Of a stretch of 64,000 nt of DNA, positions 13,645 through 64,000 are shown piece after piece. The position numbers were made by a program, and so were the translations under genes. Position 1 is the stretch's first letter. Each line of letters begins with the position of its first letter. The DNA is from an uncultured Candidatus Peribacteria bacterium (GTDB lineage: Bacteria > Patescibacteriota > Gracilibacteria > Absconditabacterales > Absconditicoccaceae): the NCBI GenBank assembly GCA_964458335.1, contig CAYWIJ010000002.1:26379-90378 (forward strand). The letters are read 5' to 3'. The notes beneath the pieces are model-generated. The model ran no database searches. It worked only from the letters and a program-made list of their open reading frames with translations, and was not told the DNA's origin.

Positions 13645-13992
13645 AAATTGCATCTGTTGGATAAGCCTGGTTCTGTCGAGATATGATATGTATCTAATCC
13701 GACGTATAGTCGAAATCTTGCACTTCTCCCGATTTGTCGGGATGAGCTTGCACGATGGACGGTTTACCACTCGACTAGCTTCTGCTAGACTGAGTACTAT
13801 GTAGCTATATTTAGTATAACACCATAGACTTTTCACCTTTCACCCCGATAGTTGGGGTTAGTATTGTCGCTGTGGCACTTTCGTTTGACCTATGATAGGT
13901 ATCCAACTGCTGTGAGCAGTTCCATGAGAGTATCGTGCCAGGACTTTCCTACCTTACAGATGTAAGATCATCATATTACAACAGATGCAATC
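13645..13992 (-). ncRNA. rnpB: RNase P RNA (bacterial)
   Basis: The minus strand carries ggtaggaaagtcctgg (GGAAAGUCC), gtgccacagcgacaa, ggggtgaaaggtgaaaag and cgacagaaccaggcttatcc (ACAGAACC-GGCUUA). A 12-bp P1 helix pairs ttgcatctgttg (5', plus coordinates 13979-13990) with caacagatgcaa (3', 13648-13659). The ends are approximate. Confidence 0.9.
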
Positions 13993-25660: not shown

Positions 25661-28246
25661 TTAGCTAAGATAAACCTCAGTATGAGTAGGATCTCCAAGT
25701 TGAGCAAGTTGTTCATCTACCTGTGTATCAGCTGAAGGTCCATATTCTTTTCCTATGGTTTCTATAAGAGGATTGTCTGGACGTATAAGAGTGTCTCGTG
25801 TAATATCACTGAAATTTGTCTGTTGTTCAAATGCATTGATCAGTGATTCAAATTTATTAACATCAATGGTGTTATTTTCTTCTTTACCTGGTTGTGTACC
25901 AAAACATTGTAAAAAGAGTAATAAGGATTGAGATGAAAGTCTATTATGAGATTGGAGAATAGTGAGGAGAGCATTTTTGTTTGTGATACTAGTATCTGTT
26001 TGTGATTTGAGATAAGCAGTAATACGATCATTGAAATTTTTGTCATTGAGTAATGTTTGTAGAGTAGTGAAACTCTTCGTTAGTCTTTCGTTTTCTTCCG
26101 CTGAATGAGACCCACTATTACGAATCATCTGCAATATTTTAAATGTATCGGGATGAGTTGCACGATCAATAGTTTTTTCATCACTATTCGTCTCATGTTC
26201 GTAAGCATAAAGAGTTTTATAAAATGGATTAGTTGTCTTAATATCTGTCTGTTGATAGGCACCATCACTATCCCAAACTTTCATCAGGTCAAATATAGTA
26301 TTTTGTACTTTATTTTTACTTAAACCATGTGCAATACTTGCTCTTACATCGATAAGTTTATATGCAGATTGTTGGGTTTTTTCATGAATTGTGTCTGTGA
26401 TAGTATCTAAATAAGCTTGTTGGGGATTGTCGTTGCTGGCATTGTTTTGGATAATATTACCAGAGATTGATGTGATGATATCATCGGTATAGGATTGAAA
26501 ATTATCGATGGTTCCTATTTTAATTTTTCATGGAATGATTTTGTTAGGATCAGAAGATCTGTTTTCTAGTGGACTCGTCATAAAAATCGTATTTCCTTCT
26601 ATAGTAAGTTGAATACCTTGATAAGATTTACCATGCAAATAGAGTGGAATAGTATCTTGGTCGTCACTGAGAGTAATCTCAGATGGTTTGAAACTAAAAT
26701 CTTCTAGTCCAGGTGTGTTTTGCATTAAGGAACTGATATAAGAGAGCTTCCCCTTTTTGATTTGAGTTCATAATGTAGATTCTACTTGTGGACTAGTAAA
26801 ATTATTTTTCATGAGTGGTATGATAAGGCGTTGTTCTGTGAATCTCATACATCTTTCTCTAGACATTTTTTTCATATTTACTGCTCGTGGATTTTCTTTT
26901 TTATCTGCTTTGGGAGGATACAGTGTTTGTAATACTTTATCAGGAATAGGACGATGTGGGTTGGCTTTTAGAAAATATCGTAGTATTGCATTTTTTAGTG
27001 CAACTTGTTTTCTCGATGTATCAGTAGTAGATTGTTCGATAAGAGGAAATGATATACGTCACTCGACGATATGGATCATCTTATGTAATATCTCTTCACT
27101 CTTACTTTCTTCTCGTCTAAAATCATTGAGCATAGTATCTTTTGGAAGTGGAAAAGAATTGATGAGAGAATTATCGTCAAATCCTGGTTTAGGTTTACCT
27201 TCACTGTTAGTAAAGAGAGGAGGAATTGACATTCCCTTACTATTGGTTTGATCAAAATAATTACCAAGATCAGTATCTAGACTTGCTGATTCCGATGAGG
27301 AGCTATTCTTTTCTGCTATATCAAGAGTAGGTTGCTCCATCGTCTTCATGCCTCTGTTTTTGTTTTTCCAGCTATATGGGTTATCTATCCCTAAACCATG
27401 ATAGAACGCATTTTCATCGATCTGTGATTCTTCTAAGAATGAGGCAAACGATTCTGCCTGACTTCTCTCTGTATCGGTGATGATAATCTTTGGGTTTGTT
27501 TTGGACTGTTGGAGTTTTGCGTTGAGAGCGAGATGGTAGTTGAAGAAAATAAGAGCCTTCTTTTGAGCTTGAGCTGGAGTATCTCCATTGTTTTGGAAGA
27601 TGTCTTCTAATTTGGAAACAAGACTTTCTCATTTTTGGTTTTTTATTGCATAGAGTTGTTCTCTTGTATATTTGATGGTTACTGCCTCTGGATTCTTAAT
27701 TTCCTTATAGAGGTTTGTGATTTGAATACTTCATAATTTTTTCTCTTCATTAGTAATATTCTTCACGTCATTAGTAATATTCTTCACGTCATTAGTAATA
27801 TCCTCTTTATTCTTTAATGTGCTTTTCTCTTCATTAGTAGTAACTTCTTTATCTTTTAAATCTTGCTGATTTATATCATAATATTCTGTTTTGATTATCC
27901 CAATGAGATTATTTGTATATGATGATATATTTTCATCATCGAAACCATCTCTTGCTTTTTTAATAATGTGTTTGATGTACTCTGCTAAAAGAGAAATATC
28001 TAAAGAAGGGAAGTTAATTGTTTGTTTGATTACTTCTTCTACTTGTTGTTTAGTCTGATTATCTTTATCTTCTATAGTTTTAAGAAATTTTTGTATTTTC
28101 TCTTGTTGTTCAATTTCAAGATCAGGAAATTTTTGTATGATAGTTTTTATTTGTTTATCAGAAAAACTTTCTGAAGAAGATAAAACTTTATCAGGAGTTT
28201 CTATATTTATGGGTGTTTGGATATCATTGTTTCCCATGAGTGACAC
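25661..28246 (-). CDS. large hypothetical protein (861 aa)
   Basis: Track ORFs 27731..28246, 27059..27349, 26528..26725 and 25661..26284 share one frame. I walked every codion-level gap between them and found only TGA. TAA stop 25661-25663. No domain recognised. Confidence 0.7.
27748..27805. repeat. 21-nt tandem repeat (about 2.7 copies), coding DVKNITN repeats
   Basis: cattagtaatattcttcacgt occurs twice and is followed by a partial copy. It lies in frame within the 861-aa ORF. Confidence 0.8.
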
Positions 28247-30187: not shown

Positions 30188-31228
30188 TTATTGACAAGCA
30201 GATTCGGTGATGGTGATTGTATTGTTATTATGATCAATCCTTGCTGTGACTCATAGTGGTAGTACCATCATAGGATCAGTATGACCGAAGTCCATATTAG
30301 TGATGATAGAGAGATGGGTTAGTCATAGTTCTTCATTAATAATTTTAAGTAATGTATCATCATAATTAATTTGTGATTGAGTAGTATAATTATATTGAGA
30401 TCTTCAAAGTAATATACCTTGTATTTTTTGGAGAATACCTTGAGATCATAGATTTCTAATTATTCTTTCAAATTGATTGATACTCATTTGCTCTTCTGAT
30501 GTTTCAATGAAGAGAATTTTATCGTTCCATTCATCAAGAGTAGGTCGAATACTTGTTCCTATCATAAAAGGGAAAACATCAAGACATCATCAGAGCAGTT
30601 TACCTTGTACGATACCTTCTCCTTGTAGTCGTCTTCGTGGAGTGTTTGGCATGAGATTTCTTTTGATATTTTGATTATCAGGATTTCACCAATCATAAAG
30701 TTCGTTTGTCCATCAGGATGTGTTTGGAGTAAGGAATCCAATGGGATCAGGACTAAAAAGAGATTTTTGTACATACTCAGCCATATACGGAAATATTCCT
30801 GTATTTTCACCAAATCAAGCCATGATACTTGGTCCATAAAATGATACGAGACCGGCTTTTTGACAGATAAAATGAGTGATAGTACTATCAGAATATCAGA
30901 GGAAAATTTTAGGATTATTGCGAATAATATCAAAATCGATATAGGGGAGTATTCTAATAGATTCTTCTCATCAGATGGTTGAGATGATAGCTTTGATATC
31001 TGGATTAGCAAAAGCATCCATCAAATCTTGAGCTCTTAGCTCTGGATGTTCATATACTCGTTGAGCAGATTGTAGAGTATGATTCATCTCTATCACGGTG
31101 ACTCAAAATTCTTGTTCGAGTTGTTGTTTACCGATAGCATATCTTTCTGGGCATGCTCAAGGTCATCACCATGAGAGAGATACGGTAGCTATGGTATCTC
31201 AGGGTTTGAGATGGAGAGGGTAGAGCAT
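30188..31228 (-). CDS. S66-family serine peptidase (LD-carboxypeptidase / MccF-like), copy 1
   Basis: LKPGDTIATVSLSWGG.., GYSDSTITH (nucleophile Ser), IETSEE and NMDFGHTDP (His). 346 aa. The frame was fully hand-scanned with no TAA/TAG. Composition is similar to the flanking genome. Confidence 0.85.
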
Positions 31229-31440
31229 GATAAAGCTCTTGAAAACTATAAAATATAATATAATATATATAATATATGGGAAACATTATTGTTTTTCAAT
31301 GAATAAATGCTTAGTCTAATTATAATTTAAATAAAACTATCAAATAAGTAAAGTAAGATGTTTTATATGTTTTCTTACTTGAAAAATGTTCTTTAAAACT
31401 TATACTATTCAATATATTTATTTATGATGATTTGATTGTA

Positions 31441-32433
31441 ATGATTATACCTAATAAATTAAAGAAAGGAGATGAGATAAGAATTATTGCTCCCTCTCGT
31501 AGTTGAAGTATATTTCAGGATGAATTTTTAAATTTAGCAAAAGATAAGTTAGAATTATTATGATATAAAGTTACTTTTTCAAAAAACATTTTTAATAAAG
31601 ATATTTTATGATCTTCATCAATAGAAGATAGAGTATCAGATTTGCATGATGCATTTTGAGATTCTTGTGTTAAAGCAATTATTACTATTATTGGTTGATT
31701 TAATATAAATACTATTTTGAATCATTTAGATTATAATCTTATAAAAAATAATCCCAAGATACTTTGTGGATATTCAGATATTACAGCATTACAAAATGCA
31801 CTATGGAAGAAGATATGATTAGTGACTTATTCTTGACCACATTTTTCAACATGGGCCATGAAAAAATGATTTGACTATATACAGGAATACTTTTTAAATA
31901 TTGTAACACAAGATTATCCTGTATCAATTTATCCCTCTCATGAATACAGTGAAGATAAATGGCATAAAGATCAAGATAGTAGAATATTTCTAGCGAATTG
32001 ATGATATAAAATATTAAAATATTGAATATCTACATGAAAAATTATTTGAGGTAATTTATGTACATTGAATCTATTACAATGAACAGAATATATGCCAGAT
32101 CTAAAGAATTGTATAGTATTTATTGAAGATGATAATATTGCGTGATCAGCAGGAGTGTTTGAATTTGAAAGAAATTTTCAGTCGCTTATGCAACAAAAAG
32201 ATGCTAAATATATTAAGTGATTGTTAATAGGAAGATTTCAAAAGGATGTGGATATGACAGAAGAGAAACTAAAGTATATTGTTTTATCAAAGACAGATTG
32301 ATTAGATATTCCTATTATATCAAATCTTGATTTTTGACATACATATCCTATGATTACATTTCCTATATGAGGTGTTATTTCTATAGAGGCTATTAATGAA
32401 AATGATATATCTTTAACTATAGAAACTCATTAA
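31441..32433 (+). CDS. S66-family serine peptidase (LD-carboxypeptidase / MccF-like), copy 2
   Basis: LKKGDEIRIIAPS, GYSDITAL, FIEDD and LDFGHTYP. 330 aa with about 20 in-frame TGA. Every codon was checked to TAA 32431-32433. Confidence 0.85.
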
Positions 32434-32459
32434 TAATTTAAGATTACTATACTATAATT

Positions 32460-32822
32460 ATGCAGGGCTTGTTAATAATAAAACCAGATGCTTTTAGAGA
32501 AAAAATTGATAAAGAAATACTAGATATATTATCTAATAGATGAATTGTTATAGTAAATGCTTTATATAAAGAAATATTATATGAAGATTTAAGACAATTA
32601 TATTTAATTGATATCTATCCTATGAGTATATCAGCTCATGATATTTTATTAGAAATATATTCATGATGTTCTACAATTTTAATTGTTGAATGAAATGATA
32701 TATTTAATAAATTGATGAAGGTTAAAAAAGAAATTAGGGAAAAATATAAAAAACAGTATTGATATATACATACCAGTGATAATAAACTTGAATTTGAAAG
32801 AGAAGTGAAAATTTTTATATAA
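32460..32822 (+). CDS. nucleoside-diphosphate-kinase-like small protein
   Basis: LLIIKPDAF at the N-terminus and YGYIHTSDN, which resembles the NDK NxxHGSDS catalytic-His motif. 120 aa. TAA 32820-32822 overlaps the convergent gene end. Confidence 0.6.
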
Positions 32823-34455
32823 ATAAATCTTTTATAGTAGTAATATTATCTAATAAAAGACTTTTAATGGAGTCTCTCTCATAGATTGTTCATATAAGGC
32901 TATTATCTATAGAATTATATTCTATGATTAAATGTTTTTTGTATCATTTTTTTATCATATATTTTAATATTTTTCATTTTTTATATATATTGTATGGATA
33001 TTCTTCTATGATAATATTCTCTTTAAATCTTATATAGTCTATGTATTCTCTTACTTGTTGATATTTGACATCAATAGGAATATTAATGGATATTCCAACT
33101 TTAGGTGATAATTCTAATATGTTATTTCATGTTTTTGTTTCTATAAGTTGTATGAGTCTTTCAAGACTGAATCCAATTCATGTTCATTGTATTAGAGGTC
33201 ATCATAAATTTTTTGTCATAAAATCATAAGAACCACCATCAGCTGTTTTCTTAGAAGACCCTGCAAAAATTTGATAACACAAACCATTATAAAATCAATT
33301 TCAATCTAATTTTCATAAACAAAATCTTATGTTTTTTATTCAATTATATTGCATTTTTTGAATAAAACTATTGATTTCATTTACTCTTTTTAAAAGAAAA
33401 GAGAATTTTTTGCTTAACTCTGATAACAGTTGAATACTTTGATTGTGATTGTTTCAACAAGATAGTAATCATAAAATTATCATGACCTGTTTCTCATTTA
33501 TTCAATAATTTTGAAGAAGTGTTTTTATATTATTGTGTGTTTTTTCTCTAATAATTTGATATACAATATTATCAATATCTATTTGCGATGGTTTATTGTT
33601 AAGAAAATAATAAAGTAAGTCTTTAATTATATCTAAATGGCTAATTTCTATATAGTAATCTTTTAATCAATAAATACTTAGAAACTTTAGAAAAATTGTT
33701 ATAATTTCTGTCGCTGCAAAGTCGTTATCTAATCAATATGTTTCTATTGCCAGCATCTCAAATTCTCTTTTTCTATTTTTCCCTGAACGGTAGCGATATA
33801 CGTTTCCAGAGAAGAATAGTTTAATCGGTAAATTGTCTCTAAAATTTGGATTATTGAGAATTGCGCGACTAATAGGTCAATTAATATCTGGTCTTAATAT
33901 AAGTTCACGATTAGACTTATCAAAAAATGTATATGACTTATCTCAGGGATAATAAGGTGCAGTTAATTTAAAAATATCAGAATATTCAAATATAGGAGTT
34001 TCTATTTTTTGAAATCAATGAGATCTCAGAAGCTTAAAGAAAGAATGTTTTAAATGTTCTGCTTTTTGTAAATATTCATCATTTAGATCACTTGTTCCAC
34101 GAGGAGTTTGTATTTTATTTTTATCTCTTATAACTTTAAATGATTGATAAAATTTATTTTTTTCATCCCAAATATATTGATTGATTTCTTGTATGATCTT
34201 ATTATCTGATAATTCAATACTATTAATAATATTAGATTTATAAGTATTTATAATATTAGTAATTTGTACACAAAATAAATTTCTATCACTTCAATTTACA
34301 TCTAATGTGTCTATTAGTTTATAAATATTTATACAAGCTTCATCTAATATAGATTGTATATTTTTTTTATGTTCTTGTAAAATAAGGAATTGTTTTGAAA
34401 AATTTATGAAAGATTCATTAATAAATAATTTTAAATGATCTTTATTATTTATCAT
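32815..34455 (-). CDS. divergent HisRS-like class II aaRS paralogue with N-terminal extension
   Basis: 546 aa, all codons hand-scanned. PRGTSDL, IETPIFE, LILRPDINGPISR, KREFEMLAIETYG and GIGFSLERL match the HisRS/HisZ fold. Catalytic signatures are altered: GNGFYNGL replaces RGLDYYTG, and GGSYDF replaces GGRYD. The N-terminal extension is about 115 aa. Confidence 0.75.
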
Positions 34456-35764
34456 TATGACTTAATGTATTAAATAAATTTTCCATAGTAACTTGTATTT
34501 GATCTCAATTTTTAAGATCTTTTAGGTACATATCAGTTCCATTATTTAATATAAGAAAATTATTTATACCTCTTTTTTCTGAAAATTTAAATTGATTTCA
34601 TATTTTCTTATTAAAATTAGGTATTATTTCACACGATATAAAATTATTTCTTAAGATATTTGCAATATTATTTGCTGTATTTCTTTGACTTTCACTATAT
34701 CATCAAATCATTAATTGTGTATTGAATAAGTTTTCTGTATTAATTTGTTGTAAATGATTTAATAATCAAAATAATCTTGTAAGTCATAAAGAGAATCAAA
34801 CACCTGGTAGTCTTTTTCAACTTATCATATTTGTTAAATTATCATATCTACCTCATCAACATATACTTATATTTCATAGTGTTTTTAATTTTCATTCAAA
34901 TATAGTTCCTGTATAATATCATAATCAACGCACCATATTAATTTTAAATTTGATGCAATGTGAGATATCGTTACTAACATTAGACATAATTTCTTGAATT
35001 TCGTTTATTGCATTATTAATTGTGATGTCGCCTTGATATATCTCAAATATTTTAGATAAAGATTGAGAATCGAAATCTATATCTCAATTATTAATAAATA
35101 AGTCAATTACTGAAGTTGGTATGTTAATTCTTTCTAATTCTTGTCTACATTGTTCACTTCATATTTTATCTAGTTTGTCTACTATATTAAGAAATAATTG
35201 CTTACTAGAACCATCTATATGATAAAAATTACATATTCAATCTATTAATTTGCGATTATTTATATATATATAAAATTGATCTGGGATTATTGTGTTTAGC
35301 GCTTTAACTCACATTTCTAATACTTCAGCATCATAATGTAATGGTAATGTTTCAATACCTATTACGTCAATATCGGTTTGTAAAAATTCTCTATATCTTC
35401 ACATTTGAGGTCTTTCTCATCTTCGACATTTTTGTATTTGATAGCGTTTAAATGGAAATGTTAAATTATGAAAATTATCAACTGTATATCTTGCAAATGG
35501 TACAGTTAAATCAAAATGTAAACCTAATTTAGGTTTTTTATGTTCATTTTCTTCAGAAGAAATATCATTGTACCTTCCAACACCATAAATTTCTTTATCG
35601 TCAGATCATTTAGTTAATAGAGTATCTAATGATTCTACTGAAGCTGTTTCAATAGGTATATATCAATAGAGCTTATATATGTTTTTTACTTTATCTATCC
35701 AAGATTCCATCAATAATTGTTCTTTAGGTAGTAACTCGGGAAATCAATTAATTGGAGAATTCAT
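34445..35764 (-). CDS. hisS: histidine--tRNA ligase (complete)
   Basis: [44 protein letters not shown] (motif 2), [20 protein letters not shown] and GVGFSLGLTRL, plus an anticodon-binding-like C-terminal domain. 439 aa with about 25 in-frame TGA. The frame was hand-scanned. Confidence 0.85.
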
Positions 35765-35834
35765 GATGTGAATAAAATGATATAAATTAACTATATTAAT
35801 AATTATATTATATATATATGTCAATAGAATTTAT

Positions 35835-36653
35835 CTATCAAATAATCTGTGTGTCTATATTATTCTGATAAAAAGGAATATATTCTTTAAAGAATTCTAT
35901 TAAAAATTTATTAATTTTTTTCTTATTATTAATAGGGTCATATTCCCAATCTAATACTTGTCTCATTTGTACTTTGAATTGAGGATATAGAGAAATAAAT
36001 TCTTTGTAACATATTTTAACGTCTGGTGTATAAATAGTTTTATGAAGCATAACTATTCATAAAGCAGATCTTAATATAGTTCTCATAATCCATCTACATA
36101 AAAATTCATTCTTTTTTCTTTCTCATAGGTAGTAAAATACTTTATTATCATTATATAAATAGGATCTTAATTCTTGTAGATAAGCTGGTAAATTTTGATA
36201 TAAATATAAAAATAGTTCTTTTCATACTTTATAATTTTGCAGACCGCAACATATATCCTGTCAATATAATAGTGCAGATTGAGCTAATAAATTTATTCTT
36301 AAAAGATTATATTGAATTGAATATAATACTTCATCTAATGATACTATTCATAAGTCATAAAAAGATATGTTGGGATCTATTAATGATAATTCTCTAGTTG
36401 TTTTTTTTATCCAACATACATCTTCATAAGAAACACTATTATTTATGATACATACAAAATCAATGTCTGAAAATCAATATTTTGCTGTTCATACGCTTAC
36501 ACTACCTCTGAGATATATTGAAATTATTCTATTTTTAAAATATTTTTTCATCTGAATTATTGTAAAATCAATAATCTGATGATATTCTTTTGCTATTTTA
36601 TTGATATTTCAAGTGTTTTGAATATATCAATGATAGTCAATTTGTATACTCAT
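35835..36653 (-). CDS. AadA/ANT-like nucleotidyltransferase (Pol-beta superfamily)
   Basis: IYLRGSVSVGTAKYGFSDIDFVCI matches the GS-x(9-10)-SD[IL]D motif of adenylyltransferases. The helical C-terminal domain resembles the AadA C-terminal region. 272 aa. Extends track ORF 35838..36050 upstream through TGAs. Confidence 0.8.
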
Positions 36654-36672
36654 GATAATTATATGATGAAAA

Positions 36673-37932
36673 TTAAATATTTTCTTTATCAAGATTAATG
36701 TGATTATATGGTCATTCTAGTTCTTGTGGTATATGATGATCAGCAATTAGTATAGTACAATGAGATTTATTATGATATTGATTGATGATATTAATAATAT
36801 TGTGTTTTGATACATCATCTAATCATGTAAATGGTTCATCTATTATCAAGAGTTCAGGCTCTTTATTTATGACTGATAGTGTTACTAATAGCTGCTTTTG
36901 TCCTCTACTTAAGAAAAAAGGATGCAAGTCTTTATATTTTAGTAATCAAATAAGCTCTAATTGCTTAATAATATCATCTGTTACTCATATAGTATCTTTT
37001 CAAAATTGAATTTCTCTCAGTACACTTCTTTCAAAAAGTTGTTTTTCAGGTTCTTGTAATATAAATCAATAGCTTTTAAATTTTTTTTTTATATGTCCTG
37101 ATATTGGTTTATGTTTTCATCTTATTAACTGAAGTATTGTAGATTTTCATATTCAATTACCTCCTGTGATTATATTGATTGATCATTTTTTTATATTAAA
37201 GTTGATATTTTGAAGTATTGGTATTTTATTAGAATAATGAAAATTTATATTAGATATTTCAATAATATTACCTCATTTTAGATCACTTTTGTCACTTGAT
37301 TGTAAGACAGATCTTTCTATTATTTTTAAAGATTTATTTGTTTTTAGATTAATATATTGATTAAATATTTCTAATAATTCTTTTTCATGAGTAGCAATAA
37401 ATACTATTTTATTATGTAATGATGTGGTTATATAATTCTTAAGAATATTGATATTATAAAAATCTAAGTTTGCAGTAGGTTCATCTAATAAAAGGATAGG
37501 ATTATCAGAAGATAATATAGAAATTAGGCTAATGATTTTTCTTTCACCAGAAGACAAATCTTTGATTAAAGAATTTTTTTTATTTTTTATTTTAAATAAT
37601 TTAAGGAGGTAATTAGCTGTTTCTTTTTCTTTATTATTAAGATAAAAAAATATTTCATGATAAACTGTATTAAAAAGAAACTGATTTTCAGGATCTTGAA
37701 AACTCATTTTAATGATATTATCTTCTGTAGTATTATGAGATATAATATAATCTCATTGAAAAATATTATCTATTTTTAATCAAGAAATTAGTCTAAGGAA
37801 TGTTGATTTCCCAGATCAAGTATCTCATAATATCCCAATGATATCTCATTTTTGAAATTCTTGAATAATGTCTTGGAAGAGAATTTCTCAAGTGTCTTTA
37901 TTGAATAAACTCTTTATATTAATAGTAAACAT
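36673..37932 (-). CDS. fused tandem ABC ATPase (ECF EcfA-EcfA' type)
   Basis: Two nucleotide-binding domains. The first has GDTGSGKST / LSSGERK / LLLDEPT. The second has GGNGIGKST / LSRGQKQ / LIIDEPF. 419 aa. Extends track ORF 37273..37707. Confidence 0.85.
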
Positions 37933-38595
37933 TTATTTTTTAATATTTAGATGAAAACTATCATTTAATGTTTGTATCCTTTTAATATGAGAAAGAAAAA
38001 TATTTCCTCAAATATAGTAAATTTTTTTTATTTTCTTTCATATAGAGTTGCTTTTATATTGACGTGATTCCAAAGCAGTAAGAGTAGTATCAACATCTCT
38101 CATAATATAGTTAAATGTATTTAGTGCTATAGTAATAGTAAGAATAATATTTTTTGGTAATTTTATATATATAAGAAAATTCATTAATTCATCTTCAGAT
38201 ATTATAGATATATATAATATTCATGAGAATAATATACTTAATGTTTTTAATATTACTATTATTACTTTATGAATTGTATTAGAAGAAATAAAGCTTCATC
38301 GAGGTCGTTCTAATAAAATTCTTCCTTCTACTTGACTAAATAATATTCGAAATAAGGAACATGTAATAATGAAAATTCATATTCGTCTAAAATATTGTCC
38401 ATATATTCTAAAAAATCAAATGAAGTATAATATAATAAATGCTAATAAGAGTGTGACAAGATAAAAATATATATTATTATAAAATATTAATAATAATCAA
38501 ACAAAATGAAAGAAGAATACTTTAATAATAAATGGTATTGTAAATCGTATAGAGTTATCCTTTAAAGATACAGTGAAAGTACTTTTATAAGCCAT
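37933..38595 (-). CDS. ECF transporter transmembrane (T, CbiQ/EcfT-like) component
   Basis: 220 aa with 5-6 hydrophobic segments and a C-terminal coupling-helix-like TALESRQY motif. Its stop abuts the ATPase start (TAAATG, same frame). Confidence 0.7.
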
Positions 38596-39186
38596 TTATT
38601 TATTATGTATAAATGGTAATTTATTTACAACAGGAGATAGAAATTTCAATAAAGGTATGCCAATGATTATTCATACAATTAATCATCATCAAATCCATCA
38701 ATAAATTGCAGGTTTTATAGCTTCTGATGGTATTAGTCCAGCTTTATTTAGAATAATTATAGTTCGAATTGAAGAAATAATATTAGCCATTATAACTAAT
38801 GTGATATATCCAATATAATATTTTATCTTACTAAATGATGAATTTAAATTCATGTATTTAAATCATAGAAGAATTATAACTCCTCAGAAAGTATTTCATA
38901 AAGCTCCTAGTGGAACGAAAGCATGAAATCAAGTAAATAGCGCCGCTATAATTAATCCTAAATATATTGCAAGAATTCATTTCCATTTAAACCATATTGC
39001 GAATGCATAGAAAAATGCAGATCATATATATAGAATTGAAATATTGAATATACCAAGTGGGAATCCAATTACTCAAATAATATCCAATGCAGCGACTATT
39101 CAAGATAATATTCCGATAATAATAAAGTTGTATATATAGAGATTGTTCTTTTCTGTAGATGATGCAATGATTTTATTCATGATCAT
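38596..39186 (-). CDS. ECF substrate-capture (S)-like membrane protein
   Basis: About 195 aa with about six hydrophobic segments. Sits first in the operon, and its stop abuts the T-component start (TAAATG). The start is ATG 39186 or 39180. Substrate unknown. Confidence 0.6.
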
Positions 39187-48042: not shown

Positions 48043-50409
48043 ATGAAAAAATTATTTTTTTGACTGATGATGAGTGTAGCGATTAGTATGATGTACGTAT
48101 CAGCTGATATGATACCATGAGCATTTGTGACGACATGGAAGACAGACAATCCATGATGAGTTGCTAATCAGATTATCATACCCATCCAATGAGCGTGATA
48201 TAATTATAATATCTATTGGTCAGGAGTAGATAATAGCTATACGGGAGAACTGTTGTGACGTACAGCAGCGACAACGATTACATTTCCAAGTACGGGAACA
48301 TATCAAGTCCAGATCACAGGAGCATTTCCACAGATATATATCAATAGTAATGCGAACACTCGTCAAAAATTACTCAGTGTAGATCAGTGGTGAACAGGAG
48401 TATGGAGAAGTATGCAAAATGCATTCTATGGAGCGAATAATATGGTGATCAATGCGACAGATACTCCAAACTTGAGTACTGTGACGAATATGAGTCAAAT
48501 GTTTAGAGCTGCAACGACATTAGTAGACAATGGATGAGCGATGAATACTTGGGACGTTAGTAAAGTAACTACTATGCAAAGTATGTTTAGTAGTGCAAGA
48601 AATTTTAATCAACCAATTTGAGATTGGGATGTGAGTAATGTAACTACTATGCAAAATATGTTTTATCAAGCAAGTGCATTTAATCAAGATATATGAGATT
48701 GGGACGTGAGTAAAGTAACTACTATGAGACATATGTTTGCTGCTTATGATCCATGAACTGACACTACTTTTAATCAAGATATATGAGATTGGGACGTGAG
48801 TAGTGTGACAGATATGTTGAGTATGTTTCAACATAATATTGCTTTCAACCAACCGTTAAATAATTGGAATGTGAGTAATGTAACTACTATGAATTGTATG
48901 TTTTGCTATAATATTGCTTTCAACCAACCGTTAAATAATTGGGATGTGAGTAAAGTAACTGATATGCAATGAATGTTTTATGGTATGATAAACTTCAACC
49001 AACCGTTAAATAATTGGAATGTGAGTAATGTAATTGATATGTCAATGATGTTTGGAGGTGATGATAGTGAAAGTAGTACTAAAAACTTCAACCAACCGTT
49101 AAATAATTGGGATGTGAGTAATGTAACCACCATGGAAGAAATGTTTTCTGCCGCAAAATCATTCAATCAAAATCTTTGATGATGGAATGTAGAAAAAGTA
49201 AGTAATATGTCTAATATGTTTTCTTGAGCAAAACTTTCCGTAGTAAATTATGATGCCTTATTGAGTGGATGGAATAGCCAGAGCTTAAAAACAGGCGTAA
49301 ATTTCCATGGAGGAGATAGTCAGTATTGTGTATCAGATTTAGAACATACTGATCTCTTTAGTGGATCTCATGGATGGATATTACAATGAGATGGTGGAAT
49401 GAATTGTATACGTGATATACTACTTTCAAAGATAACTATTAATGAAAATCAGACATTGGTAGGGGCGTTATCATTGGATAGATTTAATAATATTCTTTGA
49501 TTATGAACACATATGTATACTCTGATATCTGGAACAGGAGATGAGGACAATAGTCTATTTGTAATTAGTGGAAATCAACTTTCTTTCATTTCAGCACCAG
49601 ATTACGAGAATCCACAAGATCAGTGAGATGGCGTAGGAAATAATACTTATCGTATTAGAATACAAGGAGAAGATGGTAATGATGGATCGATCTTAGAAAA
49701 GATATTTATCATCACTGTTTTGAATATTAGTGAAAGTACAGGATGAGGAGGTGGAGGATATGTGATACCAGATAAAGTAAAAGAGGTAGAAGAAGTAACA
49801 AGAGTAGATCCAACTATCTTCAATCCTAGTATATCATCATCTACCTGTTTTAGTCCACTTAACCAAACAACTATCGACCAGTGAGTGAAGGTAAGTGAAG
49901 CATTCAAAACTGCCCATCAGATGTTATATAGTTATGGATTGACTAAACGAGAAAGGACTGCAGATTATAGACCATATGACTATCTCACGAGAGAAGAAGC
50001 AGCAAGATTTATGGTAGAGTTTGCAGAGAATGTTTTATGTAGAAAGAAAACGAGAACCTACAATAATAATTTTTCAGATCTCGATACTGCTAATCCTACG
50101 TTGATGAAATTTATTAGAGAATCATATAACTATGGAATCTTTAATGGACATACTGATGGTACATTTAAACCTACAGAACGTATTACTAATAATGAATTAG
50201 CTACCACTATGGTAAGACTGATTACGAACTCTTTCTTAGAAGAACCACAAGAAGATCGAGCATTGAATTATAGAAATACTTTATCTTATTATGCAAAAAG
50301 ATCATTATTGAATGATCAAGGTAGAGGAAATATCGCAGAAGCGATCTATGATCTGTATAGAAATAATGAGTATGTTCTGAAAGATATGGGATATGTTATT
50401 AAGAGTTAA
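48043..50409 (+). CDS. surface protein: signal peptide + BspA/DUF285 repeats + cadherin-like domain + SLH domain
   Basis: MKKLFFGLMMSVAISMMYVSA signal. About 9 repeats of FNQP[LI]xxW[DN]VSxVTxMxxMF. Cadherin-like ITINENQ..DEDNSLFVISGNQLSF..PDYENP..TYRIRIQ. C-terminal FSDL..GIFNGHTDGTFKPTERITNNE (SLH-like). 788 aa. The frame was hand-scanned. Confidence 0.85.
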
Positions 50410-52777: not shown

Positions 52778-53599
52778 CTATTTATAAATATCAATAATTG
52801 TTTCTACATCTTTTTCAAACTGCTGTGCACCACCTTTATAGGATATATGATGATCTAATATCAGTGTTTTGTAGGTAATTCACAATTGTTCAGCAATATA
52901 CGATCTGAGCTTTCATTTGCTAAGAAATAATTTTACTTCTCGTCCATTGTTTGATTTGATATGAGATCTTATATCTTCCATTATCTTATAAATTTCTTTT
53001 TGTTCTTCAAGAGAAGGAAATACAAATGAGACTTGCTTGTCTTCTATGACAAAGCGTTTTACAAAAATATTATATACTTTTCATTCAAGAAATTTCTCGT
53101 CAAATTTGATAGTGTTTGGTGGTGCGATGATAGTATTAATAACATCTTTCCATTCTGTCTCAAGATAAGATGGTGTTGTTGTTAGTATCTCAGCAGGAAG
53201 AGTTACTTTATCTGTAATATTTGATATCTTGTTATCCTCTTGTGTATCTTGGTGATTATTGGTAAGAGAAGATACAGTATCTCTTTGATTCTTTCCTTCT
53301 GATATTGCAGAATCTCAGTGTGGTAATATAAGAGTTGTACTTATATGGTTATTTATACTATCTTTGATCTGTATGATGTTATGAGAAGAAATTGTGGGTA
53401 CAACTTGTGGTTTCTCCAAAACATTACCTATCTTTTTGTGTGATTGTTGTTGAGCTTGTGCGAGGAGTAGAACATCATTATGGTTATGTATACTATCTAA
53501 TCTATCATAATCTTGTGCAGTGAGAGGATGATCTGTCTGCTTACATCATAATGTACTTCCTACGATCGCAGCTGTTGTGACGATATGTTGTAATTTCAT
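52778..53599 (-). CDS. predicted lipoprotein
   Basis: MKLQHIVTTAAIVGSTLG|C lipobox, with the -1 Gly encoded by TGA. 273 aa. The frame was hand-scanned to TAG 52778-52780. Confidence 0.65.
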
Positions 53600-58422: not shown

Positions 58423-58456
58423 AAAAAAAGAGACAATCGTATAACGATCATCTCTC
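58423..58456 (-). terminator. rho-independent terminator after the amidase lipoprotein gene
   Basis: The minus strand reads gagagatgatcg-ttata-cgattgtctc followed by a T7 run. Confidence 0.6.
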
Positions 58457-58488
58457 ATGTGTGTCATTTTTCTCTTTTAATTTTTAGG

Positions 58489-59709
58489 TTATGCTAGTGA
58501 TCAATAACTATTAGCAATCTTATATTTTATCATACTTGATTCAGATAATCCTGTTATTTCTATATCTTTTTCAGGACTATACCCACTAGCATTTCTGTAT
58601 GTAACAAAAGTTCTAGATGAACTACCACTACCTATTTTTTTAGTGACTAACATAGTATGATAAGCACTTCCTCCAGATATTAGATGAACGACATCACCAA
58701 TTTCCATAGAAGATAGAGGATAGGAAGCAAGTACTATGCTTCCAGAATTGGCTATATAAGTCTTCAAATAATCGGCTGCTGTCCAACTTGGACTTCTATG
58801 GATCCCAGATGGTGGAGGAGATGTATATCCAGGAAGATGAAACCATTTATAACTTCCAGATGATACCTGATTCCAGCCACCTGCTTGTAAACATTGTGAT
58901 ACAAAATTAGTACAGTCTCCTCCATAACTACTATAATCTGGATAATTAGAACTAGGTGAAAAGACATGAGCATGAGCATAATTTTTGGCTGCAGTCCTAT
59001 TATAGGTTATAAGAATTTTGTTACTTATACTACTGTCAATATTTATAATGGGTTCTGTTTGCTCAGAAGGTTGTTCTCTATACCAACGAGGATATAATCC
59101 AAAAGGACCCTTTTCTTTCCATGATTCAATCATCCACTTCCCATTTGTGAATGTCAATACAACTTCATCATAAGGTACACCAATTCCACTCTCAAAATTT
59201 TCAGTTATGTTATTTTCTACATAACTATAAGTAAGAGCTGCATCTTCTACTATATTATAGATAGTAAGTTTATCTCCAGATTGTTGAAAAGAACCGATTC
59301 TTCCAGGAATAATTTCTCCTGAGTGCCACTTTATTTTGCTTCTATAGAAAACAATAGTAGTACCTTGTTGGGTGAGTGATTTATAGTTATCAATTTCTTG
59401 TTGTAATATATCACTTCCACTTATTACATTCCATTGTGGTTTTTGTTCTTTCTTCATCAAGTATTCATATTGGGAGTTCAAAAAACTTTGAATAATAGGA
59501 ATGATTTGTTGTTGTATTTCACTTTCTGTTAAAATTTTAGCAGAAGTTTGATTAGTTTGGGCTATCTCAGGTTTCATAAGATCATCATCCTGCTGACAAC
59601 CAGTCAGAAAGAGACCGAATAATGCGATCACGAAGAACGTGAACAATGTTGTTTGTTTCATAATTTTTGTTTTTGAATTGTTAATAATTTTTTGAATTGT
59701 TGTTTTCAT
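58489..59709 (-). CDS. lipoprotein with C-terminal putative amidase domain (cell-wall hydrolase-like)
   Basis: LFGLFLTG|C lipobox. YNRTAAKNYAHAH..YGGDCTNFVSQCLQAGGW..W matches the putative-amidase-domain (Amidase_6-like) signature. About 400 aa with no internal TGA. The standard-code TGA stop at 58501 is read through for 4 codons to TAA 58489-58491. The start is 59709 or 59661. Confidence 0.8.
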
Positions 59710-59929
59710 AAGAATGAAATGTTTAAATGTTGTTAATAAATACTAAGGATTTTGGTTAAAAAATAAAAGAGAAAAATTGACACAAGGAGTACTATACGAA
59801 AACTGCCAAAAAAAAAGCAAGTCAATTTTTATAGTACAACTTATTTTCTCCAAAAAAGACTTTGAAATTTATATGATGATCAGTATAGATAGAGTATTCT
59901 GATTTATTTTGTGAAATAAGGAAAAAGAG

Positions 59930-62400: not shown

Positions 62401-62439
62401 AACATATTGACATAGACATATATATTATGTATAAATATA

Positions 62440-62459
62440 TTGTCCTGTTCGTTTGTTCT
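62440..62459. repeat. left inverted repeat flanking the T9SS-CTD gene
   Basis: ttgtcctgttcgtttgttct. Its reverse complement recurs at 63879-63901 with a 3-nt insertion. Confidence 0.7.
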
Positions 62460-62513
62460 TTAAAAAATCAATAACTAATCGCTCTTTTATAGAGCATAAA
62501 AACTTAAAACAAA

Positions 62514-63875
62514 ATGAAAAAAATCTTACTAATCGCTTTTGTTATAGTAACTACTGTAGCGAAAGCACAAATAAATTTTGATCCTTATGTGACGTATCCT
62601 ACTGGTTCTGCATTTCATTTTGTAGAATCGGGAGATATCGATGGGGATGGCGATCTTGATCTTGTGGGTGCTACAACCTTTGGAAATGATCCAGTAAATG
62701 ACTATATGCTAGTTATTTGGATCAATAATAATGGAACATTAGCTTCACCAATTAAAATTCCGTACGGCGGAGTAACAGGTTCAGCTACTGGTATTACACT
62801 AGAAGATCTTGATGGTGATGGTAAGAAGGAAATAATATTTGTAGTAGAACAAGAACTACAGGTATGGAAATATTATAATAATAACAATATTGTAAATCAA
62901 TTTTTTACTGTCACTGGCAATACAATAGATGGTGTTTCTGTGGGAGATCTTGATGGTGATGGTCGTAAAGATATTGCTGTCAGTCATTGGAATTCTCCAT
63001 GGATCTCTGTTTTGTATAATGAAAATAATAATTTCTCATTTACTAAGATAGATTATCCTATGGTACAAGGAGGTTATGATCAGATTCTCATCGGTCGTCT
63101 CGATAATGATAACTACAATAGTTTGATTTATATGAGAGGACAAGGATTGGAAAATGATATAGAGATTTTGAGGATAGGCTCGAATAGAGCTATCCAAGAA
63201 ACCAAACATCTCAATCTCTTAGACCCTACTGCTCAACCTCATGGTATTGCACTTGGAAATCCTGATGGTAGTACCAATAGAAAGTTAGCAATAACTTCAG
63301 GCGGTAATATGCCCAATGCGTGGTATTCCTTATCGAATGGAAATATGCTTCAAAATACAATGCAAACATTCCATAATCCGCAAACCGTAAGGTTTGGGAA
63401 TTTGATAGGTGATAATCGTGATGAATTAGTAATTTTGCATGGAGGGTATCAAACCCTGAGTGTACACAATATGCTTACTTATCAAGTAACATATTTTGAT
63501 GTACCATATGCTAGTCATTACCAACCAACGGAAATGACTATTGGTGATTTCAATAACGATGGCAAGCCAGATATAGCTCTTGCAAATTATCTCCACGGAC
63601 TGATTATACTGTATAATACGAGTATACTCGCTGTAGATGATGTTTCACGAGATATCGCTATTTCTATCTATCCGAATCCCGCTACTGATTATATCAGCGT
63701 GAAGACCAAAGAAAAAATTAAAAAACTTGAGCTGTATGATCTTAGTGGTCGTAAAGTAAAAGAAAAATTTAGTACTTCACAAATGAATATCTCAGAAAAA
63801 ACTCCAGGTACCTATGTGCTTCGAGTTGAGTTAACAAATGGAGAGAATTTCTCCACAAAAATAATCAAACAATAA
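62514..63875 (+). CDS. FG-GAP/VCBS-repeat protein with T9SS type-A C-terminal sorting domain
   Basis: Signal peptide MKKILLIAFVIVTTVAKAQ. Repeated D.DGDG..D motifs. The C-terminal IYPNPATDYISV...LELYDLSGRKV......GTYVLRVE...G....KIIKQ is typical of Por/T9SS CTDs. 453 aa with about 40 Gly and no TGA. Confidence 0.85.
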   Translation: MKKILLIAFVIVTTVAKAQINFDPYVTYPTGSAFHFVESGDIDGDGDLDLVGATTFGNDPVNDYMLVIWINNNGTLASPIKIPYGGVTGSATGITLEDLDGDGKKEIIFVVEQELQVWKYYNNNNIVNQFFTVTGNTIDGVSVGDLDGDGRKDIAVSHWNSPWISVLYNENNNFSFTKIDYPMVQGGYDQILIGRLDNDNYNSLIYMRGQGLENDIEILRIGSNRAIQETKHLNLLDPTAQPHGIALGNPDGSTNRKLAITSGGNMPNAWYSLSNGNMLQNTMQTFHNPQTVRFGNLIGDNRDELVILHGGYQTLSVHNMLTYQVTYFDVPYASHYQPTEMTIGDFNNDGKPDIALANYLHGLIILYNTSILAVDDVSRDIAISIYPNPATDYISVKTKEKIKKLELYDLSGRKVKEKFSTSQMNISEKTPGTYVLRVELTNGENFSTKIIKQ

Positions 63876-63878
63876 ATT

Positions 63879-63901
63879 AGAACAAACAACGAACAGGACA
63901 A
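63879..63901. repeat. right inverted repeat flanking the T9SS-CTD gene
   Basis: agaacaaacAACgaacaggacaa is the reverse complement of 62440-62459 plus a 3-nt indel. It starts 4 nt after the stop codon. Confidence 0.7.
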
Positions 63902-63908
63902 ACAGATT

Positions 63909-63940
63909 TAGCCTTAGAGATTTCTCCGAGGCTATTTTTT
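63909..63940 (+). terminator. rho-independent terminator
   Basis: tagcct/aggcta outer stem, gaga/tctc inner stem, then a T6 run. Confidence 0.65.
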
Positions 63941-64000
63941 ATTGCTTACTTTTTCTTTTGCTTTCCTTCTATCAATAATTATAAGTTGTTAGGTACTAGG

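What the first reader, a model, noticed from the sequence alone, without database searches (positions are those of the whole stretch)
62440..63901. TGA-free gene for a T9SS-sorted FG-GAP protein, flanked by ~20-bp inverted repeats, embedded in a TGA-recoded genome
The 453-aa ORF 62514..63875 has about 40 glycines and not one TGA. Native genes here use TGA for roughly a third or more of Gly codons.

Its C-terminus (IYPNPATDYISV..LELYDLSGRKV..GTYVLRVE..KIIKQ) is a type-A sorting domain of the type IX secretion system. That machinery is known only in Bacteroidota/FCB bacteria and is not expected in a CPR cell.

The gene is bracketed by ttgtcctgttcgtttgttct (62440-62459) and its reverse complement with a 3-nt indel (63879-63901). 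Native repeat families resume on both sides: the glycosylase tail up to 62400, and the gtaaaag-type and gttaggtactagg-type repeats at 63941-64000. That argues against a chimeric assembly.

This looks like a recently acquired cassette from a standard-code (Bacteroidota-like) donor, possibly a host or neighbour. The inverted repeats hint at a mobilisation mechanism.
Basis: partly seen in the sequence, partly recalled or inferred. Interest (0 to 1): 0.75.

Follow-up and report, generated by a model that had tools for sequence, protein, structure and literature searches.

The report
Stop-codon-free surface gene with clamped mRNA
A bacterium that reads TGA as glycine carries an old, inherited Bacteroidota-style surface-protein gene that has been kept free of TGA over long evolutionary time and whose predicted mRNA ends pair with each other; a second gene family nearby has the same design, and the reason is unknown.

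Summary
ORF 62514-63875 has 40 GGN glycine codons and no TGA, in a genome where TGA is 29-33% of glycine codons. It encodes an FG-GAP beta-propeller with a type-A T9SS C-terminal domain, and it is bracketed by a roughly 20-nt inverted repeat.

The gene looks Bacteroidota-derived, but it is not a recent arrival. Orthologues at 48-88% identity sit at the same position in four other TGA-recoded lineages. All lack TGA, their other codon usage matches the host, and GC is unremarkable. Native neighbours exchange TGA and GGN freely over the same divergence, so TGA is actively excluded.

The inverted repeat is not a transposon end. One arm starts at the predicted transcription start. The other lies between the stop codon and the terminator. 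The pairing survives compensatory changes, and both arms are missing together in one lineage. This points to a 5'/3' clamp on the mRNA.

A second TGA-free cassette at 58.4-59.8 kb (lipoprotein amidase, or M57 peptidase in a relative) has the same architecture with unrelated arms. That family also has members in standard-code bacteria, including Chryseobacterium at 64% identity. Why TGA is excluded remains unexplained.

The parts
62407..62435 (+). sigma-70-like promoter: -35 TTGACA (62407-62412), 17-nt spacer, -10 TATAAA (62430-62435)
   Evidence: Read from the sequence. TTGAC[AT], a 16-17 nt spacer and TATAAT are conserved at the same place in L120, L001, L002 and L008. The generic promoter scan is not enriched in this AT-rich DNA, so the support comes from conservation, not from the scan.
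62440..62459 (+). 5' arm of the inverted repeat; predicted first ~20 nt of the transcript
   Evidence: Begins 5 nt after the -10 box. Pairs with 63879-63901 at -28.7 kcal/mol, z = -5.7 against shuffles. This helix closes the MFE and centroid folds of the 1499-nt predicted transcript.
62480..62496 (+). small conserved hairpin in the 5' UTR (CGCTCT-TTTAT-AGAGCA)
   Evidence: Present in all five orthologous leaders, including L008. One compensatory U-A to A-U change. Function unknown.
62514..63875 (+). CDS, 453 aa: signal peptide, 7-bladed FG-GAP beta-propeller, type-A T9SS C-terminal domain; 0 TGA / 40 GGN
   Evidence: AlphaFold2 model has mean pLDDT 86.5, is all-beta, and matches integrin-alpha and BBS propellers by Foldseek.
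62514..62570 (+). Sec signal peptide MKKILLIAFVIVTTVAKA followed by Gln (Bacteroidota 'Q-rule' position)
   Evidence: By inspection; residues 1-16 have low pLDDT. Q19 is invariant in the 4 orthologues and at least 90% conserved in the 42-sequence alignment. Q-rule: PMC5837995.
63666..63872 (+). type-A T9SS C-terminal sorting domain (aa 385-453)
   Evidence: PF18962 and TIGR04183 above their cut-offs. Invariant Y386 P387 N388 P389, G432 x Y434, K449 I450 x K452. Weak sequence matches to solved T9SS CTDs 8glj_D, 8qb1_A and 5hfs_A. Model strands 383-452 have pLDDT above 90.
63879..63901 (+). 3' arm of the inverted repeat, between the stop codon and the terminator
63910..63940 (+). intrinsic-terminator-like hairpin AGCCTTAGAG..CTCCGAGGCT followed by ATTTTTT
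   Evidence: Hairpin at the 3' end of the MFE fold. An equivalent hairpin plus T-run occurs in L120, L001, L002 and L008. The simple terminator scan missed it because the stem is imperfect.
59756..59826 (-). second cassette: promoter region (ATTGACTTGC ... TATAGT) and 5' arm CTTGTGTCAATTTTTCTCTTTTATTTTTTAA (59756-59786)
   Evidence: The same shell is found in L117, L118, L001 and L002.
58489..59709 (-). second cassette CDS: Amidase_6 lipoprotein (lipobox LTGC-QQDD); 0 TGA / 28 GGN in the body; one TGA at the 4th-last codon (58501-58503), then SLA-TAA
58423..58487 (-). second cassette: 3' arm (58458-58487) and intrinsic terminator (58423-58456)
   Evidence: Arm duplex -29.4 kcal/mol, z = -4.5. 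Terminator called by the scan.

Best explanation
What it is. A vertically inherited gene of an Absconditabacterales/Gracilibacteria-type bacterium that uses genetic code 25. It encodes a secreted 7-bladed FG-GAP beta-propeller with a Bacteroidota-type type-A T9SS C-terminal domain. It was most likely acquired from a Bacteroidota donor before the sampled lineages split.

How it is built. It forms a self-contained transcription unit. A sigma-70-like promoter starts the transcript at about 62440. The first ~20 nt of that transcript are complementary to ~23 nt between the stop codon and an intrinsic terminator.

How it most likely works (inferred). The two ends of the mRNA pair into a 14-20 bp clamp. 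The clamp shields the 5' end and the 3' UTR from ribonucleases, or otherwise sets mRNA lifetime or translation.

The TGA pattern (shown). In-frame TGA is removed by purifying selection, not merely absent for lack of time. The gene is therefore readable under both code 25 and the standard code.

A recurring design (shown). A second, unrelated cassette family has the same layout with different arm sequences. It is a lipoprotein shell carrying amidase, M57 peptidase or other cargo.

Why TGA is excluded (not shown). I rank two options highest. One is independence of these transcripts from UGA decoding by tRNA-Gly(UCA), a codon-level expression class. The other is membership of a gene pool shared with standard-code Bacteroidota.
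For: Organism and code. TGA is a sense codon for Gly. The best named LeuRS hits are Candidatus Absconditabacterales.

Protein. Pfam and NCBIfam domains. AlphaFold2 propeller plus beta-sandwich. CTD motifs conserved.

Old and vertical.
- Syntenic orthologues occur in independent assemblies.
- Identities are 88, 69, 54 and 49%.
- The best standard-code relatives are only 30-34% identical.
- Codon usage is ameliorated and GC is unremarkable.

TGA is excluded by selection.
- All five orthologues have 0 TGA among 38-44 GGN codons.
- Native window-L001 orthologues show 17 TGA/GGN columns among 38 Gly columns whose codon differs.
- FG-GAP window-L001 shows 0 of 19 (Fisher p = 4e-4).
- The absence is frame-specific.

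Clamp.
- Arms lie at the predicted transcription start and just before the terminator in window, L120, L001 and L002.
- Duplex energies are -20.7 to -28.7 kcal/mol, z = -4 to -6.5.
- 93% of helix cells are paired. Three pairs changed on both sides; 0 did in the slid controls.
- One of these is U-A to C-G between the window and its relative L120, which is 95% identical in the propeller.
- Both arms are absent together in L008.
- The helix closes the global MFE and centroid folds.

Specific association. Across about 110 genes in 6 loci, the eight best upstream/downstream complementarities are all members of the two TGA-free cassette families.

Second family..
Against: - There are no transcript data. 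The transcription start, the 3' end and the pairing in vivo are all inferred.
- Promoter-like hexamers are not statistically enriched in this AT-rich DNA.
- Covariation rests on only four distinct sequences.
- A strain variant (L004) has lost most of the 3' arm, and L008 has no arms, so the clamp is dispensable.
- A DNA-level role for the repeat cannot be excluded from sequence alone.
- There is no general codon optimisation, which weakens a simple 'highly expressed gene' reason for avoiding TGA.
- The donor lineage of the FG-GAP gene is inferred only from domain type and distant homologues.
- The function of a T9SS sorting domain in a cell not expected to have a T9SS is unexplained.
Confidence: 0.6

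Rival explanations
1. The gene is a recently acquired cassette from a standard-code donor, and the inverted repeats are the termini of a mobile element that brought it in.
For: 0 TGA of 40 Gly codons. Bacteroidota-type CTD. Flanking inverted repeat. The related amidase cassette does occupy different slots in different genomes.
Against: - Syntenic TGA-free orthologues occur in four other recoded lineages down to 49% identity.
- Codon usage is ameliorated and GC is normal.
- No standard-code homologue exceeds 34% identity among 5.8 billion proteins.
- The arm motif is single-copy in the window and in 127 loci.
- Conservation extends outside the arms to the promoter and terminator.
- There is no transposase and no target-site duplication.
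Confidence: 0.04
2. DNA inversion switch (gene inverton). A recombinase flips the segment between the arms. This uncouples the gene from its promoter and gives phase variation of a surface protein.
For: The layout promoter - IR - surface-protein gene - IR - terminator is compatible with such a switch. A second surface-protein cassette has the same layout. Both arm families share outer TTGT...ACAA ends.
Against: - About 12 FG-GAP and 6 amidase/M57 contigs from different samples all show the ON orientation.
- The arms are imperfect, with bulges, and differ between the two families, which argues against one recombinase site.
- No recombinase gene is nearby.
- A G.U pair in L001 suggests pairing at the RNA level, though the overall tally of non-Watson-Crick pairs is not decisive.
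Confidence: 0.1
3. Cross-code shuttle pool. The cassettes stay TGA-free because their coding parts are repeatedly replaced by copies circulating among standard-code Bacteroidota. The vehicle could be the code-11-compatible phages described for Gracilibacteria. In-situ selection would then not be needed.
For: - The amidase family has standard-code members: Chryseobacterium at 64% identity, next to a transposase, and L123.
- These nest among recoded members in an NJ tree.
- Cargo is swapped within a conserved shell: amidase, M57 peptidase or P0154.
- The CTD module has been swapped between close relatives, with the propeller 95% and the CTD 51% identical.
- TGA followed by TAA as tandem stops matches the design reported for such phages (PMC10746230).
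Against: - For the FG-GAP gene no standard-code homologue exceeds 34% identity.
- Its five recoded orthologues share non-coding leaders and synteny.
- No close relatives exist in IMG/VR or INPHARED phages.
Confidence: 0.12
4. Ordinary highly expressed gene. TGA is a poorly decoded codon, avoided in abundant surface proteins, and the clamp simply stabilises an abundant mRNA.
For: Near-consensus promoter, own terminator and end pairing. Surface proteins are often abundant.
Against: - TGA is one of the commonest Gly codons here, 29-33%. It even encodes invariant Gly in LeuRS.
- The cassettes show no enrichment of C-ending or other preferred codons.
- Other secreted or pilin-like proteins use TGA normally: 23/62, 5/11 and 11/30.
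Confidence: 0.12

Closest known systems
Type-A CTD cargo proteins of the Bacteroidota type IX secretion system (TIGR04183 / PF18962), e.g. FG-GAP/VCBS adhesin-like proteins of Flavobacteriia and Chitinophagia
   Same: Signal peptide followed by Gln, FG-GAP propeller, and a C-terminal ~70-aa beta-sandwich with YPNP, GxY and KIxK motifs.
   Different: It is encoded in a code-25 Patescibacteria-type genome, which is not expected to have an outer membrane or a T9SS. Only 30-34% identical to the nearest Bacteroidota proteins.
'Code-11-compatible' phages predicted to infect Gracilibacteria/Absconditabacteria (Liu et al. 2023, mBio, PMC10746230)
   Same: Genes lack in-frame TGA and so can be read in both codes. 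In the amidase cassette, different stop codons sit close together at the gene end (TGA..TAA). There are links to Bacteroidetes.
   Different: These are chromosomal, syntenic single genes among housekeeping genes, not phage genomes. No phage relatives were found. The flanking mRNA-end complementarity is not described there.
Bacterial mRNAs with 5'UTR/3'UTR base pairing, e.g. Bacillus subtilis hbs and Staphylococcus aureus icaR (recalled from my own knowledge; my literature search for these papers found nothing)
   Same: Complementary segments in the leader and the 3' UTR of one mRNA, thought to control ribonuclease access or translation.
   Different: Here the 5' arm is the very start of the transcript. 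The duplex is long (14-20 bp). It is conserved with covariation across genomes and recurs with different sequences in two gene families. No experimental support exists.
Codon-dependent regulons such as TTA/bldA in Streptomyces (own knowledge)
   Same: A class of genes is defined by presence or absence of one codon, read by one dedicated tRNA.
   Different: No evidence here that tRNA-Gly(UCA) is regulated. This is an analogy only.
Phage 'morons' (own knowledge)
   Same: A single gene with its own promoter and terminator, inserted between unrelated genes.
   Different: There is no prophage context. The unit is conserved across lineages.

Membership tests
T9SS type-A CTD cargo (TIGR04183 / PF18962) | C-terminal domain matching the family model above the curated cut-off | tested here: met
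   PF18962 43.9 bits (cut-off 27). TIGR04183 41.5 bits (cut-off 23)..
T9SS type-A CTD cargo (TIGR04183 / PF18962) | Conserved CTD motifs and Ig-like beta-sandwich fold | tested here: met
   YPNP, GxY and KIxK are invariant in 4 orthologues. Model strands 383-452 have pLDDT above 90. Weak hits to solved CTDs.
T9SS type-A CTD cargo (TIGR04183 / PF18962) | N-terminal Sec signal peptide | tested here: inconclusive
   MKKILLIAFVIVTTVAKA|Q by inspection, with a low-confidence N-terminal helix. No signal-peptide predictor was available.
T9SS type-A CTD cargo (TIGR04183 / PF18962) | T9SS machinery (SprA/Sov, PorV, PorU, GldKLMN) in the same genome, and CTD cleavage on secretion | not testable with these tools
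   Only 64 kb is available. No other CTD protein was found in the window or in L001, L002 or L008. The ten ORFs scanned (nine of unclear function plus the DHH/DHHA2 gene) gave no T9SS family. No paper links T9SS to Gracilibacteria or Patescibacteria.
FG-GAP / VCBS beta-propeller | Repeated FG-GAP units with DxDxDG loops folding into a 7-bladed propeller | tested here: met
   PF13517 1.3e-23 in 4 stretches and PF01839 1e-12. AlphaFold2 all-beta model, residues 26-366. Foldseek matches to integrin alpha and BBS propellers, E = 1e-8 to 1e-11.
Transposable element / MITE with terminal inverted repeats | Repeats mark the element boundary; target-site duplication; several copies; transposase or empty sites | tested here: not met
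   Conservation continues outside the arms. No direct repeat abuts the arms. The motif is single-copy. No transposase is adjacent. The gene is present in all five lineages.
Inverton (invertible DNA switch) | Both orientations present in a population; recombinase | tested here: inconclusive
   All assembled contigs show one orientation and no recombinase is nearby. Reads could not be examined.
mRNA with 5'UTR/3'UTR pairing | Complementary segments both lying inside one transcript, kept by compensatory change | tested here: met
   Duplex z = -4 to -6.5. Three pairs changed on both sides; none in the slid controls. The helix closes the MFE and centroid folds. Transcript ends are predicted, not measured.
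mRNA with 5'UTR/3'UTR pairing | Measured effect on mRNA stability or translation | not testable with these tools
   Needs RNA-level experiments.
Dual-code ('code-11-compatible') genes, as in Liu et al. 2023 | No in-frame TGA in a lineage that uses TGA as sense | tested here: met
   0 TGA in five orthologues. Selection inferred from codon turnover.
Dual-code ('code-11-compatible') genes, as in Liu et al. 2023 | Phage-borne | tested here: not met
   No close relative in IMG/VR or INPHARED. The chromosomal context is housekeeping genes.

The most novel reading that the evidence does not exclude
The cassettes are built to be decoded and sorted by a standard-code Bacteroidota cell rather than, or as well as, by the bacterium that carries them. 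On this reading the epibiotic or predatory code-25 bacterium passes end-clamped mRNA, or DNA, of these genes into its host.

The supporting logic is as follows:
- Absence of TGA allows correct translation in the host.
- The Bacteroidota-specific signals would route the products to the host surface. These signals are the Q-rule signal-peptide site, the type-A T9SS CTD, and the C-Q-Q-D-D lipoprotein export signal.
- Occasional integration into host genomes would explain the Chryseobacterium and L123 copies.

The analogy is Agrobacterium T-DNA, which carries host-type expression signals.
Probability: 0.05. Interest if true: 0.97.

Novelty: new variant of a known kind. Interest (0 to 1): 0.66.

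Why it matters
Stop-codon reassignment is usually seen as a barrier that isolates a lineage genetically. Here chromosomal genes of a code-25 bacterium have been held free of the reassigned codon for a long time. They keep sorting signals that only make sense in Bacteroidota. One of the two families has relatives in standard-code bacteria.

If the pattern holds genome-wide, it defines a class of code-neutral genes. Such genes could mark the real hosts or partners of uncultured Absconditabacteria and Gracilibacteria. They could reveal codon-level control of expression in recoded bacteria. They also show which genes can cross a genetic-code boundary.

The conserved pairing of mRNA ends, with different sequences in two families, would be one of the clearest comparative cases of 5'/3' UTR clamping in bacteria. 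It is directly testable by RNA-end mapping.

Tried and rejected
- Assembly chimera: rejected. The same junctions recur in independent assemblies.
- 'Secreted proteins in general avoid TGA': rejected. 48043-50409 has 23/62, lipoprotein 52778-53599 has 5/11, L002 Fib_succ_major has 14/36, and L002 6549-9755 has 58/128.
- Lack of a Shine-Dalgarno sequence as a foreign mark: rejected. None of the 56 ORFs has one.
- General codon optimisation: not seen.
- Known RNA family in the UTRs: none. The only sub-threshold hit, fstAT at E = 0.036, lies inside the CDS on the opposite strand.
- Dispersed repeat family: the arm motif occurs only at this gene.
- Phage reservoir: no close relatives found.
- Genome and metagenome collection scans gave no further orthologues. 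The first pattern found nothing and the second found only relatives at 24-33% identity.
- RNAduplex over 100-nt flanks was too noisy to single out the FG-GAP gene (z = -1.9). It did reveal the amidase cassette. A local-alignment scan was specific.
- The third protein search, on LeuRS, gave only a coarse taxonomic placement.
- Counting G.U against A.C mismatches in the arms was not decisive. I did this by eye.
Full report

The window has 32% GC. It is open for translation only if TGA is a sense codon: stop-free stretches of at least 150 codons cover 28% of it under the standard code and 89% with TGA as sense. TGA stands for glycine. In native orthologue pairs TGA columns align with GGN columns. 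In LeuRS, three TGA codons align with invariant Gly of Bacillus enzymes and none with Trp. The best named LeuRS relatives are Candidatus Absconditabacterales at 52% identity; unnamed hits reach 70-78%.

ORF 62514-63875 encodes 453 aa with 40 GGN codons and no in-frame TGA. The other two frames hold 11 and 23 TGA triplets. Pooled TGA use is 33% of Gly codons, or 29% outside a low-GC island. The probability of 0/40 is about 1e-6 by binomial and 8e-4 by a beta-binomial that allows for scatter between genes.

The protein has FG-GAP repeats and a type-A T9SS sorting domain, both above curated cut-offs. An AlphaFold2 model (mean pLDDT 86.5) shows an all-beta propeller at residues 26-366, a short linker and a beta-sandwich at 383-452. 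Foldseek finds integrin-alpha and BBSome propellers. The CTD alone weakly matches solved T9SS CTDs.

The inverted repeat 62440-62459 / 63879-63901 is real and is not expected by chance.

2. THE GENE IS NOT A RECENT ARRIVAL

Among 5.8 billion proteins, the only close relatives are P0121 (88%), P0002 (69%), P0003 (54%) and P0004 (49%). All are encoded on contigs that read properly only with TGA as sense. In L001, L002 and L120/L121 the gene sits in the same place: after LytR and the HhH-GPD glycosylase and before a PDDEXK_1 gene. The contig carrying P0004 (L008) is too short to show its context. All five genes have 0 TGA among 38-44 GGN codons.

The next relatives are 30-34% identical. They lie on standard-code contigs or carry Bacteroidota names. 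GC, GC3 and synonymous codon choice of the gene cannot be told apart from native genes.

An ultimate Bacteroidota origin remains likely, for three reasons:
- the CTD itself;
- the Gln directly after the signal peptide, which is invariant here (the Bacteroidetes 'Q-rule', PMC5837995);
- the taxonomic spread of the wider family.

3. TGA IS ACTIVELY KEPT OUT

Native neighbours of the window and L001 are 80-95% identical. Even so, among their Gly/Gly columns whose codon differs, 17 of 38 are TGA/GGN exchanges. The FG-GAP pair is only 69% identical and has 19 Gly/Gly columns with different codons, and none involves TGA (Fisher p = 4e-4). The same holds for every pair among the orthologues compared.

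Lack of time therefore cannot explain the pattern. Nor can a general property of secreted proteins, since several secreted or lipoprotein genes use TGA normally. Codon optimisation does not explain it either.

4. THE INVERTED REPEAT BELONGS TO THE TRANSCRIPT

In the window, L120, L001 and L002 the layout is the same. A conserved TTGAC[AT] / 16-17 nt / TATAAT promoter is followed within 4-7 nt by the 5' arm. The 3' arm lies between the stop codon and a hairpin plus T-run.

The evidence for pairing is:
- Cognate arms pair at -20.7 to -28.7 kcal/mol, z = -4 to -6.5 against shuffles.
- On a 14-bp core helix, 93% of cells pair.
- Three pairs show changes on both sides. These include U-A to C-G between the window and L120, whose propeller is 95% identical, and C-G to G-C in L001.
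- Slid controls fall to 33-57% pairing with no compensatory change.
- L008 lacks both arms together.
- A strain variant, L004, has an 18-nt deletion in the 3' arm.
- The 5'-3' helix closes both the MFE and the centroid folds of the 1499-nt predicted mRNA.
- A small hairpin in the leader is conserved in all five orthologues.
- No Rfam family matches.

The arm motif occurs nowhere else in the window or in the 127 loci fetched, and conservation continues outside the arms. It is therefore not a transposon terminus.

I infer an mRNA end clamp. This is not shown, because no RNA data were available. A DNA inversion switch is the main rival for the repeat. All roughly 18 assembled copies of the two families show one orientation, but the reads could not be inspected.

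5. THE DESIGN RECURS

The only other long TGA-free gene with such flanks is the Amidase_6 lipoprotein at 58489-59709 (-). It has 0 TGA among 28 GGN codons in its body. It has the same architecture with unrelated arms of about 30 nt (-29.4 kcal/mol) and a clear terminator.

Its 'shell' has these parts:
- promoter and 5' arm;
- leader;
- signal peptide ending FGLFLTGC-QQDD;
- gene end TAT-TGA-TCn-yTA-GCn-TAA;
- 3' arm and terminator.

The shell recurs in L117, L118/L119, L002 and L001. In L001 the cargo is an M57 peptidase, and a third cargo exists (P0154). The cassette occupies different intergenic slots in different genomes. In L002 the arms differ on both sides in step: T5/A5 has become A7/T6.

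A local-alignment scan of about 110 genes in six loci puts members of these two families in the top eight places, with nothing else above background. End complementarity and TGA exclusion therefore go together.

6. THE AMIDASE FAMILY CROSSES THE CODE BOUNDARY

The amidase is 64% identical over 96% of its length to a protein of unclassified Chryseobacterium. That locus (L115) uses the standard code, and the gene lies beside a DDE_3 transposase and a Tae4/DUF6705 pair. It has no shell.

Another member lies on a standard-code contig, L123, where TGA occurs only at gene ends. It ends ...NSY-TGA-TTA-GCA-TAA, like the recoded copies.

In an NJ tree both standard-code members nest among recoded ones. 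This implies at least two transfers across the code boundary; the direction is unresolved. The lipobox context C-Q-Q-D-D fits the Bacteroidota lipoprotein export signal, Q-x-(D/E)2 (PMC5080379).

This resembles the 'code-11-compatible' phages reported for Gracilibacteria. Those lack in-frame TGA and stack different stop codons at gene ends, and several match Bacteroidetes spacers (PMC10746230). However, I found no phage relatives of either cassette. Moderate co-abundance of Absconditabacteria with Bacteroidetes has also been reported (PMC8406219).

7. WHAT REMAINS OPEN

The reason for TGA exclusion is unknown. The candidates are:
- A simple high-expression argument. It is weak: TGA is a common codon here, it encodes invariant Gly in LeuRS, and no other codon bias is seen.
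- Repeated import from standard-code donors. This fits the amidase family but not the FG-GAP gene, which has no near standard-code relative.
- Independence from UGA decoding, as a codon-defined expression class.
- Expression in a Bacteroidota host. This is the boldest reading. It would also explain why Bacteroidota-only sorting signals stay conserved.

The sequence data exclude neither of the last two.

The CTD is a mobile module. Between the window protein and P0121 the propeller is 95% identical and the CTD only 51%, yet the motif residues persist.

Whether this genome has any T9SS component cannot be judged from 64 kb. None appears among the ten ORFs scanned, and no second CTD protein is present. 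I found no paper linking T9SS with Gracilibacteria or Patescibacteria.

8. VERDICT

The finding is more interesting than a simple horizontal transfer, because it exposes a recurring, conserved and unexplained gene design in a recoded bacterium.

Noticed in passing
window 58423-59826 (-): Second TGA-free cassette: an Amidase_6 lipoprotein with its own promoter, ~30-nt 5'/3' complementary arms and a terminator. Its only TGA is the 4th-last codon, followed by SLA-TAA. A homologous shell carries an M57 peptidase in L001. A 64%-identical homologue exists in Chryseobacterium.
   Followed up: yes
window 30188-39186: Low-GC island (GC 20-26%) where TGA makes up 57-83% of Gly codons, against about 29% elsewhere. 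By eye it holds two LD-carboxypeptidase-like genes, two HisRS-like genes and ECF-transporter-like genes. It may be DNA from another code-25 source.
   Followed up: no
window 21285-22211 (+): A DHH/DHHA2 gene (family II pyrophosphatase-like) with 0 TGA among 15 Gly codons and no flanking complementarity. It may be a third TGA-free gene of a different kind.
   Followed up: partly
window 13646-13988 (-): RNase P RNA, class A (109 bits). This explains the 13-nt inverted repeat at 13647/13979.
   Followed up: yes
window, all 56 ORFs: No Shine-Dalgarno-like motif lies upstream of any ORF. The genome appears to initiate translation without SD pairing, as Bacteroidota do.
   Followed up: partly
window 104-5695 (+) and 25661-28237 (-): Very large ORFs of 1863 and 858 aa with no Pfam match. 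The window also holds a DUF285 + SLH surface protein (48043-50409) and a pilin-LRR fusion (16423-17679).
   Followed up: partly
L004 3086-3110 versus L002 11309-11355: A strain variant encoding the identical protein has an 18-nt deletion that removes most of the 3' arm. The duplex weakens from -24.2 to -12.8 kcal/mol.
   Followed up: partly
P0121 (L120/L121 10001-11365) versus window 62514-63875: The propeller is 95% identical but the CTD only 51%. This indicates a recombination or module swap at the propeller/CTD junction between close relatives.
   Followed up: partly
L122 (GCA_031257845.1, labelled Candidatus Peribacteria): The contig reads better with TGA as sense (ORF coverage 0.45 versus 0.75) although the label names a standard-code lineage. 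Its amidase ends Y-TGA-KLT-TAA.
   Followed up: partly
L115 6001-9886 (Chryseobacterium, GCA_003094695.1): The amidase homologue lies next to a DDE_3 transposase and a Tae4 (type VI amidase effector) / DUF6705 pair. This suggests an acquired antibacterial island.
   Followed up: no
   Followed up: yes
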